DNA of 64,000 nucleotides, from NCBI RefSeq assembly GCF_058153355.1, contig NZ_CM177019.1; one strand, given 5' to 3'. Positions 51,986 through 57,728 of this stretch are shown piece by piece. The notes beneath the pieces were generated by a model. That model was not told the origin of the DNA. It searched no databases and saw nothing but the letters and a program-made list of their open reading frames with translations. How positions within the stretch are numbered: the stretch's first letter is position 1; every line of letters starts with the position of its first letter. The translations under genes and the position numbers were made by a program.

Positions 51986-52120
51986 TGAGTTTGCGGTGTC
52001 TGAACTGGTGCTGTAATTGGTTGAAATATTTCATCTAATGTCTGGTTCAACTTTCCTTAGCTGCTTGAAAGTTTTTTGATCTTACCCAGCAATAATAGGG
52101 TGACGGTGCACCACGCCTGA

Positions 52121-52330
52121 CTGAAGAACTGCGTGCTCAGAGTTACCACTTCAGCGCATAACCGTGGCAGCAGGCCCGGACAGAACAAACGGCTCAGGAC
52201 ATTATCGGTAGGGGACGCACTGCTAGTCTGTAAACTGAACCGACTGGGGCGCAGTATGTGGCATCTTGTCGTGCTGTTGGAGGAGCTGTGAGAACGTGGT
52301 ATTAACTTTCGTGCTCTGACTCTACCAATA
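52121..52330 (+). pseudogene. pinH: Remnant of Pin/Gin/Hin-family serine DNA invertase (N-terminus missing, frameshifted)
   Basis: Translation ...KRLRTLSVGDALLVCKLNRLGRSMWHLVVLLEEL* then frameshift to ...GINFRALT matches the resolvase-invertase core ...[31 protein letters not shown]. Confidence 0.7.
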
Positions 52331-52737
52331 TTTGCCCAACAATGGGTGGACGAAAGCTGTAAAAGTAAAACAATCTGCAATCTCAATATTATTGTGTGAT
52401 TTTTATGTGAGCAGAAGATATTCATCAGAAACGATTATGTAAATCATTTTATTTTTCCGACGGCTTCAATGTCGAAAGAAAAGAATACGCCCGTATTTCC
52501 TGAATAGATTGACTTTTTTATCCAACCACACTTCAGCGCACTGCGTTTAAAAAATGCCTCTTTCTTATGCGGAATATCATCATTTCATCATGATGTCTTT
52601 GATGAGCGGTGAACACAATACATTTGCGCTGTCTCTTCAGGATTAATCCCCTGGTCTGGTGCCTGTGGGCTGATGTTGCAGCAGAGCTAAGGTTGCTTAA
52701 ACGCTACTCAGTATTCACTTTTCAGAGGATGAAAATT

Positions 52738-55700
52738 ATGAACAGGACCAGTCCCCATTATTGTCGTCGCTCAGTACTTTCCTTATTGATATCTGCTTTG
52801 ATATATGCCCCACCAGGGATGGCAGCTTTTACTTCAACCGTTATTGGCGTGGTAAACGATGAGACTGTAGATGGCGTCCAAAGAGTGGATGAACGAGGTA
52901 CAACAAATAACACTCATATTATCAACCACGGTTATCAGGATGTTTATGGCGGGGTATCTAATGGAAGTATTATTGAATCTGGTGGCCGTCAATATGTATC
53001 AGCCAATGGTACTCATCAGGGGCAGGCCAATAATACAGTCATTAACGGTGGCAGCCAGACAATTCTGGACGGGGGAATTTCCACAGGGACGATAATCCAG
53101 AGTGGCAGTCAGTATGTTTATGCAGGTGGTACCAGTAATGCAACAACGATAATAAGCGGTCGTTCAACAGTAATGGGGGGAACTGCGAATGGAACAATAA
53201 TTAATGGTGGGAGCCAGTCAGTATCGAGTCAGGGGCGTGTTGACGGTACGACGATAAATATGTCCGGGTATCAGGAGATTACGCAAGGAAGTCTGGCAAC
53301 GAACACAACAATAGATGGGGGGTGGCAGTATGTGGACTCAAGCAGTGTAGAAAATACTACCATTAAGAATGGAGGCGAGCAAAGAACAGTTAAGAGCCAT
53401 GCGCTGAACACCACAATAGATGGTGGTCTACAGGTTGTCGATTCAAGTACCGCAGAAATAACCACCATTAAGAGTGGAGGAACGCAACAATTAAATAACA
53501 GCCAGGCTATGTTCACCACGATTGAAGGCGGAACTCAGTCTCTGAATAATAAGTCAACGGCAAAATATACTCAGATCTATTCTGGAGGTACTCAAATTGT
53601 TGATTACACCAGCACCTCGGATGTTATTGAAATTTATTCCGGTGGCGTGCTTGATGTTAGTGGTGGTACGGCAACAAATGTTACCCAGCACGATGGTGCA
53701 ATTTTAAAAACAAACACTAACGGTACGACGGTGAGCGGTACGAATAGTGAAGGGGCATTCTCTATTCACAATAACGTGGCAGACAATGTGTTGCTGGAAA
53801 ACGGTGGTCATTTAGACGTATATGGTTCGGCAAATAAGACGATTATTAAAGATAAAGGAACAATGTCAGTTTTAACGAATGCTAAAGCTGATGCGACCCG
53901 AATAGATAATGGCGGCGTTATGGATGTTGCCGGAAACGCGACCAATACCATAATTAATGGTGGCACACAGAATATAAATAATCATGGTATTGCCACGGGA
54001 ACCAATATCAACAGCGGAACACAAAATATCAAGAGCGGCGGGAAAGCTGACACGACAAATATCTCCTCCGGGAGCCGGCAGGTTGTTGAGAAAGATGGTA
54101 CGGCAACTGGCAGCAATATTAGCGCCGGAGGCTCGCTGATTGTCTATACCGGTGGTATCGCACATGGGGTTAACCAGGAGACGGGCAGTGCTTTAGTTGC
54201 CAACACGGGCGCAGGGACTGATATTGAAGGATACAACAAGCTCTCTCACTTCACTATTACCGGAGGGGAGGCTAATTATGTTGTGCTGGAAAATACCGGC
54301 GAACTGACGGTAGTGGCTAAAACCACGGCGAAAAATACTACCGTTGATGCTGGCGGTAAGCTGATTGTCCAGAAGGAGGCTAAAACAGATACCACCAGAC
54401 TTAATAATGGTGGCGTTCTGGAGGTTCAGGACGGTGGTGAGGCTAAGCATGTTGAGCAACAATCCGGCGGCGCATTAATTGCTTCCACGACTTCCGGAAC
54501 ACTTATCGAAGGAACCAACAGTTTTGGTGATGCTTTCTACATCAGGAATTCAGAAGCTAAAAATGTAGTGCTGGAAAACGCTGGCTCATTAACAGTCGTT
54601 ACTGGTTCCCGGGCAGTTGATACGATTATTAATGCCAACGGCAAAATGGATGTTTATGGAAAAGATGTTGGCACTGTACTCAATAGTGCGGGCACCCAAA
54701 CAATATATGCCAGTGCCACTTCTGATAAAGCAAATATCAAAGGTGGCAAGCAAACGGTATATGGTTTAGCCACTGAGGCAAATATCGAAAGTGGTGAACA
54801 AATTGTTGATGGTGGGTCAACAGATAAAACGCACATCAAAGGCGGCACGCAAACCGTTCAGAATTATGGTAAGGCGATCAATACCGATATCGTCTCTGGC
54901 CTACAACAAATTATGGCAAACGGGACAACGGAAGGTTCCATTATTAATGGCGGTTCACAGGTAGTTAATGAGGGCGGTCTGGCTGAAAACTCGGTACTTA
55001 ATGACGGCGGCACACTCGATGTGCGGGAGAAAGGCAGCGCTACGGGGATACAGCAGAGTAGCCAGGGCGCGCTGGTGGCAACCACCAGGGCGACGCGGGT
55101 CACAGGGACACGCGCTGATGGCGTCGCGTTCAGCATCGAGCAGGATGCGGCGAACAATATCCTGCTGGCAAATGGCGGCGTGTTAACCGTGGAGTCAGAC
55201 ACCACTTCCGCCAAAACACAGGTCAATGCGGGCGGACGGGAGATCGTCAAAACAAAAGCCACTGCGACTGGCACGATGCTTACCGGCGGTGAACAAATCG
55301 TCGAGGGTGTGGCGAATGAGACAATGATTAACGACGGCGGAATACAAACAGTTTCGGCTAACGGTGAGGCAGTAAAAACAACGATTAATGAAGGCGGTAC
55401 GCTGACAGTCAACGATAATGGCAAAGCGACAGATATCATCCAGAACAGCGGTGCCGCTCTCCAGACGAGCACGGCTAACGGTATTGAAATCAGCGGTACT
55501 CACCAGTACGGCACCTTTTCCATTGCCGGAAATTTAGCGACCAATGTGCTGCTGGAAAATGGCGGTAATTTATTGGTATTAGCAGGTACCGAAGCTCGCG
55601 ATTCCACGGTTGGCAACGGTGGGGCAATGCAAAACCTGGGGCAGGACTTCGCCACCACGGTTAATTCCGGTGGGCAATATACCCTTGGTCGGTCAAAAGA

Positions 55701-57411: not shown

Positions 57412-57420
57412 CCATCAACG

Positions 57421-57446
57421 AAAAAGCCCACATCTGTGGGCTTTCA
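57421..57446 (+). terminator. Rho-independent terminator after ypjA
   Basis: aaaaagcccacatctgtgggctttcat; perfect 7-bp stem gcccaca/tgtgggc followed by T-rich tract. Confidence 0.7.
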
Positions 57447-57728
57447 TAACACCAGGAGCCGCGGCTCCTTTGCGTATCCTTTTATGTCTCCTCACCGTCT
57501 GGTCGGTGTCTTGCTGAGACTTCTAACTTCCTGTTTTTGTTGGTGTTGTCCTTGCACCGTCCAATCATGATTGGCTGGCGGAGTTTGAATTGGTTGTGTA
57601 ATTCATTGAATTTACTTAGGAAAATCCTGGTTCAACTTTTCGGTGGTGCCTATTTAGGTGCCTAAAAGTTTTTTCACCCTATTTTGGTTAGTAAAAGGAA
57701 GAGACATAGGGAAGGAGATTGACGCTAC

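What the first reader, a model, noticed from the sequence alone, without database searches (positions are those of the whole stretch)
51990..57690. Imperfect direct repeats bracket the pin-remnant plus ypjA autotransporter segment
Seen in sequence: about 90 bp at 51990-52080 (gagtttgcggtg...ctgtaattggttgaaat...ctggttcaactttcc...cttgaaagttttttgatc) and about 100 bp at 57580-57690 (gagtttgaattggttgtgtaattcattgaattt...ctggttcaacttttcgg...ctaaaagttttttcacc) share several conserved blocks in the same orientation. The first copy ends right at the start of the invertase remnant and the second lies just after the ypjA terminator. The shared core ctggttcaa also matches the T-arm of the adjacent tRNA-ileY (ctggttcaagtcc), but a 9-nt match could be chance. 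Inference: these may be relic recombination or attachment sites of a module that delivered or rearranged ypjA.
Basis: partly seen in the sequence, partly recalled or inferred. Interest (0 to 1): 0.4.

Follow-up and report, generated by a model that had tools for sequence, protein, structure and literature searches.

The report
Old attachment-site scars beside ssrA
The two similar ~100-bp stretches either side of ypjA are real relatives: each is the outer end (integrase-binding arm plus a damaged copy of the last bases of the tmRNA gene ssrA) of a P4-type genomic island, one island still present and one almost entirely eroded, which is an ordinary signature of repeated integration at a hotspot.

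Summary
The local alignment scores 38, against 17.2±2.6 for shuffles, and each copy is the other's best match in the window.

Both copies are the same type of junction, read on the minus strand, which is the ssrA orientation. Each has the P arm of an IntA/P4-type ssrA island followed by a degenerate ssrA 3'-end core.

**Copy B (57572-57690)** is the working distal end (attR) of the CbtA/CbeA island that fills the window's right end. It corresponds to K-12's annotated psaA/CP4-57 attR.

**Copy A (51983-52085)** is an orphan attR of an older, eroded island. It is fused to a 62-nt Fels-2-type attP arm that carries an orphan terminator.

The arms carry 10-nt integrase arm-type units 12 nt apart. 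Copy A is exactly one unit (12 nt) shorter.

The link to ileY is wrong, and the two copies are not the two ends of one ypjA-carrying element.

No integrase lies between the copies. None of 5,426 complete E. coli genomes shows a precise loss of the segment. The 158 nt next to ypjA also occur in genomes that lack ypjA and in the attP regions of phages.

This is ordinary biology of an integration hotspot, and interest is low.

The parts
49522..49597 (+). ileY, tRNA-Ile(CAU). It is not the source of the repeats. It lies in the accessory block between glaH and ssrA.
   Evidence: ARAGORN, Rfam tRNA and RefSeq annotation. The best ssrA-end-like match in the window is only generic tRNA-end similarity.
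51921..51982 (-). Remnant of the P' arm of a Fels-2/SopEPhi-type (P2-like) phage attP. It includes an orphan intrinsic terminator (51974->51947) that would terminate ssrA in a lysogen.
   Evidence: Window 51921-51996 matches Fels-2 (annotated 'part of prophage attP'), SopEPhi, RE2010 and Klebsiella, Yersinia and Cronobacter P2-like phages at 81-92%. The same about 62-70 nt directly follow ssrA in P2-like lysogens L005 and L006. Terminator scan.
51983..51996 (-). Core A, a degenerate copy of the last 14 nt of ssrA. The window allele is TGATGAGTTTGCGG. The K-12 allele, TGGTGGGCTGGCAG, contains the exact 'damaged' 12-mer GCCAGCCCACCA on the ssrA strand.
   Evidence: Alignment with ssrA and orthologous alleles. 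GCCAGCCCACCA occurs twice in K-12 L004, at psaA and at copy A.
51997..52085 (-). P arm A, the distal integrase arm of an eroded P4/IntA-type ssrA island. It has a conserved block CTGGTTCAACTTT (52042-52054) and one degenerate arm-type unit TTAGCTGCTTGAAAG (52057-52071). It is 12 nt (one unit) shorter than copy B.
   Evidence: Copy A is 74-78% identical to window-type copy B and 63-69% to K-12 CP4-57 copy B.
52099..52158 (+). Short IS3-family transposase-like fragment (HTH_21). The hint is weak.
   Evidence: Translation. Pfam HTH_21 E = 3e-4 for the K-12 allele, below the gathering score, and no hit for the window allele.
52160..52345 (+). Serine-recombinase (pinH-type) remnant. Only the middle of the resolvase domain remains, with an internal stop.
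   Evidence: Pfam Resolvase N-terminal domain, profile positions 48-100 of 145, E = 2.7e-7. RefSeq calls it a partial 'recombinase family protein'.
52738..57411 (+). ypjA/ehaD adhesin-like autotransporter.
   Evidence: ORF list and RefSeq annotation of orthologues.
57421..57571 (-). 158-nt ssrA-trailer module containing hairpins and a terminator. It is what lies next to ssrA wherever no island is inserted.
   Evidence: It abuts ssrA in TL012 and in ST131-type genomes that lack ypjA. It is 82-86% identical to the attP regions of phages LLS, Ayreon and phiNP.
57572..57581 (-). Core B, a damaged ssrA 3' end. It reads CCGCCAGCCA on the ssrA strand, the 'CGCCAGC-----CA' type. It is the exact boundary of the resident island and the counterpart of K-12 psaA.
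   Evidence: Homology of most E. coli genomes to the window stops at 57578-57601. ssrA sits at this point in genomes without an island. K-12 psaA annotation. Table 1 of PMC10107115.
57582..57690 (-). P arm B of the resident P4/IntA-type island. It has the block CTGGTTCAACTTTT (57627-57640) and two arm-type units 12 nt apart, TGGTGCCTAT (57644-57653) and AGGTGCCTAAAAG (57656-57668).
   Evidence: In R32_14_1F all four exact AGGTGCCTAA sites in 49 kb lie in the island's two arms.
57729..58401 (-). CbtA-family toxin and CbeA/YeeU antitoxin genes, the last genes of the resident island.
   Evidence: Pfam CbtA_toxin E = 1e-50 and CbeA_antitoxin E = 2e-53. Annotation of R32_14_1F.

Best explanation
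Both repeats are attR-type junctions of P4/IntA-family genomic islands that integrate into the 3' end of the tmRNA gene ssrA. ssrA lies beyond the right end of the window, on the minus strand.

Each repeat consists of two parts. The first is the island's distal attP arm (P arm), which carries 10-nt arm-type integrase-binding units spaced 12 nt apart. The second is a short, damaged copy of the last bases of ssrA (the core).

Copy B is the live outer boundary of the CbtA/CbeA-bearing island now sitting between ssrA and ypjA. Together with attL at ssrA, it is the substrate on which the island's tyrosine integrase and excisionase would act. By analogy with CP4-57, excision would leave ssrA with the damaged end CGCCAGCCA and an inactive tmRNA.

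Copy A is the fossil outer boundary of an earlier, related island. That island entered ssrA when a Fels-2-like P2-type prophage already sat there, which is why copy A's core is followed by a Fels-2-type attP arm and an orphan terminator. Later integrations pushed this junction away from ssrA. Deletions then removed the old island's integrase side.

The two copies resemble each other because the two islands belong to one family, not because they are the two ends of one element.

Shown: the homology, the ssrA origin of the cores, the boundary role of copy B, the arm-type motif architecture and the Fels-2 arm. Inferred: the order of events, integrase binding, the consequence of excision, and whether ypjA was cargo of the older island.
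For: (1) The similarity is significant and reciprocal-best in the window.

(2) In TL012 the ypjA 3' flank runs straight into the ssrA 3' end at the position of copy B's core. 2,512 of 5,426 genomes have ssrA contiguous with the 158-nt module. Most genomes lose homology to the window at 57578-57601.

(3) K-12 alleles show the cores clearly. ssrA reads TGGTGGAGCTGGCGGGAGTTGAA, copy B TGGTGG-GCTGGCGGAGTCTGAA and copy A TGGTGG-GCTGGCAGTGACTGAA. The exact 12-mer GCCAGCCCACCA occurs only at psaA and at copy A in 11 kb. K-12 RefSeq annotates the copy-B core as psaA at the end of CP4-57. The missing base is the delta-T357 that CP4-57 excision leaves in ssrA (PMC10107115).

(4) In R32_14_1F, whose P arm is 97-98% identical to the window's, the island is 21.3 kb with a P4-type integrase next to ssrA (Arm-DNA-bind_3, Phage_int_M and Phage_integrase domains). 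All four exact AGGTGCCTAA sites in 49 kb lie in its two att arms.

(5) K-12 CP4-57 has the same architecture with a different motif, TAGGCCCA/TAGGACCA: two direct units 12 nt apart in each arm plus one inverted unit before intA. The two integrases are 71% identical in the arm-binding domain and 92% elsewhere. Motif and arm-binding domain therefore co-vary.

(6) Copy A is as similar to the modern arms (63-78%) as those are to each other (61-63%), and its 12-nt gap equals one unit spacing.

(7) The left flank of copy A plus its core matches annotated Fels-2 attP and many P2-like phages, and follows ssrA in P2-like lysogens. Strain S1 shows a present-day tandem array, ssrA | P2-like prophage | 45-nt ssrA core | CP4-57-type arm + integrase.

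(8) ST131-type genomes have ssrA followed by 683 bp and then glaH. The whole glaH-ssrA interval of the window is therefore accessory, and it is of low GC.

(9) Neither copy folds better than shuffles on either strand, and there is no Rfam hit. This fits DNA protein-binding sites rather than RNAs.
Against: - In the window itself, core A matches the damaged ssrA core at only 10 of 14 positions, and an ssrA-end scan of the window does not pick out either copy. The assignment rests on synteny with better-preserved alleles.
- No integrase gene or P' arm belongs to copy A.
- No genome shows the copy A-copy B segment as a clean presence/absence unit (0 of 5,426).
- The 158 nt between ypjA and ssrA/core B also occur in genomes that lack ypjA and in phage attP regions. 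Simple serial integration therefore does not by itself place ypjA inside the old island. At least one extra integration (an LLS-type phage) and a deletion must be assumed.
- Integrase binding to the proposed arm-type units is inferred, not measured.
- The window's island diverges from R32_14_1F after 62039, so its own integrase and attL were not seen.
Confidence: 0.85

Rival explanations
1. The two repeats are attL and attR of a single mobile module that delivered ypjA and the invertase. This is the first reader's view, in its ssrA-adapted form: ypjA was cargo of the older P4-type island, bounded by ssrA or core B on one side and core A on the other.
For: The two cores are direct repeats bracketing foreign-looking DNA: an autotransporter, an invertase fragment and a weak IS-like fragment. 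Autotransporter cargo is typical of this island family (own knowledge: flu in CP4-44). The whole interval is accessory.
Against: Both repeats are the same junction type (P arm + core). The extended similarity therefore comes from two different islands, not from the duplication made by one integration. There is no integrase between them. The ssrA-proximal 158 nt are shared with genomes lacking ypjA and with LLS-type phages. No precise empty site was found in 5,426 genomes.
Confidence: 0.35
2. The repeats are relics of attachment sites for an element targeting the neighbouring tRNA gene ileY (for example a phage 186-type site), as suggested by the shared CTGGTTCAA.
For: There is a 9-nt identity with the ileY T arm. 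ileY is a known phage 186 attachment locus (PMC3448106).
Against: Similarity to ileY does not extend beyond 9 nt. The motif lies in the arm, 45-55 nt from the true boundary. The boundary sequence matches ssrA, and ssrA itself occupies that position in island-free genomes. The repeats are on the wrong side and at the wrong distance for an ileY 3'-end duplication.
Confidence: 0.02
3. The repeats are crossover sites of the Pin-type invertase whose remnant lies beside copy A, and once governed inversion of the ypjA segment.
For: The invertase remnant lies 75 nt from copy A. The copy A stretch CTTGAAAG/TTTTTTGAT loosely resembles one hix/pix half-site (own knowledge of the hix consensus; not tested with a tool).
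Against: The copies are direct, not inverted. There is no complete 26-bp two-half-site palindrome. The same A/T block occurs in copy B and in K-12 CP4-57 attR, where no invertase is present. The invertase remnant lacks its N-terminus and catalytic region.
Confidence: 0.02
4. The similarity is due to chance or low complexity, or reflects a shared RNA, terminator or regulatory element.
For: Both regions are AT-rich intergenic DNA with T runs.
Against: z = 8.1 against dinucleotide shuffles, and reciprocal best hit. Homologous cores are present in orthologues. No excess RNA structure (z about 0) and no Rfam family.
Confidence: 0.02

Closest known systems
attR of cryptic prophage CP4-57 (K-12 psaA, 'pseudo-ssrA') and the IntA/AlpA excision system
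   Same: Copy B occupies the same position, with a damaged ssrA 3' end next to the same 158-nt flank. Its P arm has the same architecture, and the integrase of the nearest relative is 85% identical to IntA. Copy A in K-12 carries the identical damaged 12-mer.
   Different: The window's island is a different, rare variant. Its P arm is only about 62% identical to CP4-57's, and was found at 90% identity or more in 8 of 5,426 genomes. Its arm-type motif is TAGGCACC rather than TAGGCCCA, and its core has a 5-nt rather than a 1-nt deletion. Copy A has no island attached.
[quoted passage not shown]
   Same: A target gene is followed by successive elements, each ending in a 3' gene fragment in the same orientation. 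The 'damaged' fragments have a small deletion near the 3' end (PMC4383910; Table 1 of PMC10107115). A live example is strain S1.
   Different: Here the older members have lost their integrases and most of their content, so they would fail Islander's integrase filter. I could not read Williams 2003 (not held), so I cannot say whether copy A was already described there.
Fels-2 / SopEPhi (P2-like) attP at ssrA
   Same: The 62 nt to the left of core A, plus the core, match the annotated Fels-2 attP and its terminator-bearing arm at 88%.
   Different: Only the arm survives. No P2-like genes remain next to it in the window (ypjCB follows).
Integrase-less cis-mobilizable elements formed by accretion beside an integrative element (CIME-type)
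   Same: A cargo segment without an integrase is bracketed by att-core copies next to an integrase-bearing relative.
   Different: There is no evidence of mobilisation: 0 precise excisions in 5,426 genomes. Core A is decayed in the window. This comparison rests on my own knowledge of the concept.

Membership tests
attR (P arm + core) of P4/IntA-type ssrA-integrating islands: copy B | A 3'-terminal ssrA fragment, in ssrA orientation, lies exactly at the island/chromosome boundary. | tested here: met
   The core CCGCCAGCCA lies at 57572-57581. ssrA occupies this point in island-free genomes, and homology of most genomes ends here.
attR (P arm + core) of P4/IntA-type ssrA-integrating islands: copy B | A tyrosine integrase of the P4 type lies at the ssrA-proximal end of the same island. 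| tested here: inconclusive
   Met in the nearest relative R32_14_1F. The window ends before ssrA, and its island diverges from R32 after 62039.
attR (P arm + core) of P4/IntA-type ssrA-integrating islands: copy B | Arm-type repeats are shared between the P and P' arms. | tested here: met
   AGGTGCCTAA occurs only in the two arms of the R32 island. The window P arm has the same two units. K-12 CP4-57 has the parallel arrangement.
attR (P arm + core) of P4/IntA-type ssrA-integrating islands: copy B | Integrase-dependent excision joins attL and attR. | not testable with these tools
   Shown experimentally only for CP4-57 (PMC10107115).
attR relic of a P4/IntA-type ssrA island: copy A | An ssrA 3'-end fragment is present in ssrA orientation. 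| tested here: met
   The K-12 allele has the exact GCCAGCCCACCA. The window allele matches 10 of 14. Other alleles are intermediate.
attR relic of a P4/IntA-type ssrA island: copy A | A P arm homologous to those of live islands, with arm-type units. | tested here: met
   63-78% identity to two live P arms over about 90 nt. One degenerate unit is retained, and the 12-nt gap equals one unit.
attR relic of a P4/IntA-type ssrA island: copy A | A cognate integrase and P' arm lie on the ssrA side. | tested here: not met
   No integrase ORF lies between 52086 and 57571. The proximal flank is the 158-nt module. Copy A is therefore a relic, not a live member.
attR relic of a P4/IntA-type ssrA island: copy A | The bounded segment varies as a discrete unit among strains. 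| tested here: not met
   0 of 5,426 genomes have the precise empty junction. Genomes lacking ypjA lack the whole glaH-ssrA block.
Fels-2-type (P2-like) attP P' arm: left flank of copy A | Sequence match to an annotated attP arm adjacent to the ssrA core. | tested here: met
   88% to Fels-2 'part of prophage attP', and 81-92% to other P2-like phages. The same sequence follows ssrA in lysogens.
Hin/Gin/Pin invertase crossover sites | Two sites in inverted orientation, each a 26-bp imperfect palindrome, with a functional invertase nearby. | tested here: not met
   The copies are direct, there is no palindromic site, and the invertase is a fragment.
tRNA-Ile (ileY) attachment-site duplication | A copy of the ileY 3' segment (anticodon or T loop to the 3' end) in ileY orientation at an element boundary. 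| tested here: not met
   Only 9 nt are shared, and they lie inside the arm rather than at the boundary.

The most novel reading that the evidence does not exclude
The ypjA segment may be an integrase-less, cis-mobilizable cargo module. In strains whose copy A core is still intact (K-12 keeps the exact damaged core GCCAGCCCACCA), the integrase and excisionase of the neighbouring CP4-57-type island could recombine core A with ssrA or core B. That would excise ypjA alone or together with the island, and so move an adhesin gene by hitch-hiking.
Probability: 0.06. Interest if true: 0.5.

Novelty: new member of a known kind. Interest (0 to 1): 0.2.

Why it matters
The result explains an unannotated stretch of the well-studied E. 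coli ssrA-ileY region. The interval between ssrA and glaH holds layered remains of at least three or four ssrA-targeting elements: a live P4-type island, an eroded P4-type island and a Fels-2-type arm, plus the 158-nt module, which may be an LLS-type phage arm or the ancestral ssrA trailer.

It gives a precise outer boundary for the resident island and a testable set of integrase arm-type sites that co-vary with the integrase's arm-binding domain.

It also predicts that excision of this island would truncate the tmRNA 3' end, as shown for CP4-57.

It does not reveal a new kind of element.

Tried and rejected
- **First model, abandoned.** I first modelled ypjA as the body of an old island whose proximal arm is the 158 nt next to ssrA. 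I gave up the simple form of this model when ST131-type genomes showed the same 158 nt with no ypjA and phages LLS, Ayreon and phiNP showed it in their attP regions.
- **Precise empty site.** A chimeric 'precise empty site' query (ypjB flank + ssrA) found no genome with the junction. It did reveal that the 62 nt flanking copy A belong to P2-like phages.
- **ssrA-end scan.** Scanning the window for ssrA 3'-end-like sequence found only ileY's generic tRNA end.
- **RNA explanations.** Rfam and folding tests found nothing in the repeats.
- **Intact relatives of the old island.** A pattern scan of the GTDB species representatives returned one contaminated MAG contig carrying the E. coli K-12 allele. 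The IMG/VR scan returned 26 loci, all orthologous E. coli copy A.
- **Database-scale BLAST.** A BLAST search of the copy B arm against E. coli genomes does not recover copy A, because the similarity is too weak at database scale.
- **Literature.** Williams 2003, Wang 2009 and Kirby 1994 are not held. Full-text searches for ypjA/ssrA/island, ileY/ssrA and CP4-57/pinH found no description of copy A.
- **Alternative readings.** Invertase-site and ileY-att readings were rejected, as set out under the rival explanations.
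Full report
**1. The observation**

The window carries, in reverse K-12 orientation:
- ileY (49522-49597, +)
- ypjCB (50243-51802)
- an invertase fragment
- ypjA (52738-57411, +)
- cbtA/cbeA-type toxin-antitoxin genes on the minus strand

A local alignment scores 38. Two thousand dinucleotide-preserving shuffles gave 17.2 ± 2.55 with a maximum of 31. Each copy is the other's best non-self match among all tiles of the 64-kb window on both strands. 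The similarity is real. The refined limits are 51983-52085 for copy A and 57572-57690 for copy B.

**2. What copy B is**

A megablast search of 49400-58300 against 5,426 complete E. coli genomes shows that most genomes lose homology to the window at 57578-57601. In strain TL012 the ypjA 3' flank '...ccgtccaatcatgat' runs directly into the reverse complement of the ssrA 3' end, TGGTGGAGCTGGCGGGAGTTGAACCCGCG.

In 2,512 genomes ssrA is contiguous with this flank. That count can include the roughly 1,100 ST131-type genomes described below, whose flank plus ssrA would cover 81% of the query.

In K-12 the same position reads TGGTGG-GCTGGCGGAGTCTGAATTGG. RefSeq annotates its first 14 nt as the pseudogene psaA at the end of cryptic prophage CP4-57. 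The missing base corresponds to the delta-T357 lesion that CP4-57 excision leaves in ssrA, which inactivates tmRNA (PMC10107115).

The window's core reads CCGCCAGCCA on the ssrA strand. This is the 'CGCCAGC-----CA' type listed in that paper's Table 1 for other ssrA elements.

Copy B is therefore the outer (attR) end of an ssrA-integrated island. Its last genes are cbtA and cbeA.

**3. The island and its arms**

The closest genome is R32_14_1F, which is 98.6% identical over the region and has a P arm 97-98% identical to the window's. It carries a 21.3-kb island between this point and ssrA. A 413-aa integrase lies next to ssrA, with Arm-DNA-bind_3, Phage_int_M and Phage_integrase domains. It is 85% identical to K-12 IntA.

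In 49 kb of that genome the 10-mer AGGTGCCTAA occurs exactly four times, and all four lie in the island's att arms. One is in the distal arm (copy B). Three are in the 60 nt before the integrase start: two direct copies 12 nt apart and one inverted. The distal arm also has a degenerate unit, TGGTGCCTAT, 12 nt upstream.

K-12 CP4-57 has the same layout with a different motif. TAGGCCCA occurs twice in direct orientation and once inverted before intA. TAGGACCA and TGGGACCA lie 12 nt apart before psaA.

The two integrases are 71% identical in the first 100 residues (the arm-binding domain) and 92% identical in the rest. Motif and arm-binding domain thus change together. This is what is expected of arm-type integrase sites. 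Binding itself is inferred, not shown.

The window's island matches R32's only up to 62039, so its own integrase end was not seen.

**4. What copy A is**

In K-12 copy A begins TGGTGG-GCTGGCAGTGACTGAATTGG. On the ssrA strand it contains the same damaged 12-mer, GCCAGCCCACCA, as psaA. These are the only two occurrences in 11 kb. Other alleles are progressively decayed: RM13752 has TGTTGAGCTGGCGG, the window has TGATGAGTTTGCGG (10 of 14), and Yu5 carries a rewritten patch.

The following 90 nt align with the live P arms. Identity is 74-78% to the window type and 63-69% to CP4-57, while the two live arms are only 61-63% identical to each other. Copy A keeps one degenerate arm-type unit, TTAGCTGC(C/T)TGAAAG, and its 12-nt gap equals one unit spacing. 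Copy A is thus a third, orphaned member of the same family of island ends.

On its other side, window 51921-51996 (62 nt plus the core) matches the annotated attP of Fels-2 at 88%. It also matches SopEPhi, RE2010 and P2-like phages of Klebsiella, Yersinia and Cronobacter. The same 62-70 nt directly follow ssrA in E. coli lysogens of two different P2-like prophages. This stretch contains a 12-bp-stem terminator on the ssrA strand, which is the terminator the phage supplies for ssrA.

A junction of the form 'P arm of a P4-type island - core - P' arm of a Fels-2-type phage' is what forms when the island enters ssrA in front of a resident P2-like prophage. The mirror-image array exists today in strain S1: ssrA | P2-like prophage | 45-nt core | CP4-57-type arm and integrase.

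**5. The segment in between**

From copy A towards copy B the segment contains:
- a weak IS3-family HTH_21-like fragment (E = 3e-4 for the K-12 allele only)
- a serine-recombinase fragment covering only profile positions 48-100 of 145
- ypjA
- a 158-nt module (57421-57571)

ST131-type genomes (1,104 of 5,426) have ssrA, then this same module at 87% identity, then 333 nt found nowhere in the window, then glaH. They have no ygaQ, ileY, ypjCB or ypjA. So everything from 46572 to 57421 is accessory. Its GC content falls to 0.33-0.39 across ygaQ-ypjCB, against 0.56 in the gab genes.

The module is also 82-86% identical to the attP regions of phages LLS, Ayreon and Citrobacter phiNP. In LLS it lies beside an annotated 'tmRNA pseudogene' and attP, downstream of integrase and excisionase genes. 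All versions diverge just past its terminator.

It is therefore either the ancestral ssrA trailer, which these phages copied, or the arm of such a phage left behind. I could not decide between these two.

Either way, the stretch between the two copies is a composite of remnants, not the intact body of one element. It has no integrase. No genome has the precise junction expected from its excision (0 of 5,426). About 2,992 genomes carry the identical ypjB-copy A-pin-ypjA arrangement, so the erosion predates their divergence.

**6. Mechanism**

Copy B is predicted to serve as attR. The integrase would bind the arm-type units through its N-terminal domain and the core through its central and catalytic domains. 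Together with an AlpA-type excisionase, it would recombine attR with attL at ssrA.

By analogy with CP4-57, where the chromosome inherits the attR version of the core, excision would leave ssrA ending ...CGCCAGCCA. Such truncations inactivated tmRNA when tested in E. coli (PMC10107115).

Copy A is a non-functional scar in this window.

Neither copy folds better than shuffled sequence on either strand, and neither hits an Rfam family. This is consistent with DNA sites rather than RNAs.

**7.

'Relic recombination or attachment sites' is correct.

The ileY link is not. CTGGTTCAA lies inside the arm, 45-55 nt from the boundary. The similarity to ileY stops at 9 nt, and two of the four window occurrences are simply the two homologous copies.

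The invertase is irrelevant to the repeats. They are direct, they lack a two-half-site palindrome, and the same blocks occur at CP4-57's attR, where no invertase is present.

The repeats do bracket ypjA. They do so as the distal ends of two successive islands, not as the two ends of a ypjA-delivering module.

**8. Novelty**

Copy B is the counterpart of an annotated, experimentally studied site. Copy A is not annotated in K-12 RefSeq, and I found no description of it in the searchable literature. The key paper on ssrA islands (Williams 2003) could not be read.

Orphan, damaged tDNA fragments and tandem arrays are a known phenomenon (PMC4383910). The window-type P arm is rare, found at 90% identity or more in 8 of 5,426 genomes. 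The finding is a further example of a known kind and of low general interest.

Noticed in passing
window 57421-57571: A 158-nt hairpin-rich module follows ssrA in island-free E. coli, with or without ypjA beyond it. It is 82-86% identical to the attP regions of phages LLS, Ayreon and Citrobacter phiNP. All versions diverge just after its terminator. It could be the ancestral ssrA trailer or a phage arm; this is unresolved.
   Followed up: partly
window 46572-57421: ST131/B2-type genomes (1,104 of 5,426) have ssrA, 158 nt, a 333-nt filler, then glaH. The whole ygaQ-ileY-ypjCB-ypjA block, including the tRNA gene ileY, is therefore accessory DNA. Its GC content is low (0.33-0.39).
   Followed up: partly
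window 52358-52708: The region upstream of ypjA has a roughly 89% identical paralogue upstream of another autotransporter gene (the ymgJ/ycgV region) in essentially all E. coli genomes.
   Followed up: no
window 51983-51996 and orthologues (L002, L009-L012, L017-L042): The 14-nt core of copy A differs much more between E. coli alleles (four distinct versions, one a rewritten patch) than the adjacent 90-nt arm, which is nearly invariant. No explanation was tested.
   Followed up: no
window 52049-52076 and 57634-57673; L002 about 11035-11075: An inverted repeat, AACTTT(T)...(A)AAAGTT, flanks the arm-type units in both copies. K-12 CP4-57 has a differently spelled inverted repeat at the same place. 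It may be a site for an accessory protein.
   Followed up: no
window 62039-64000: The resident island matches that of the nearest genome (R32_14_1F) at 98% up to 62039 and is unrelated thereafter, so these islands are mosaic.
   Followed up: no
L016 (DEQI01000374.1): A 2.8-kb contig of a 'Planococcaceae' metagenome-assembled genome carries the E. coli K-12 allele of copy A with its flanks. It is almost certainly contamination.
   Followed up: partly
L008 12100-12400 (strain S1): This is a present-day tandem array at ssrA. A P2-like prophage is followed by a perfect 45-nt ssrA fragment and then by a CP4-57-type arm and an IS1-truncated integrase.
   Followed up: yes
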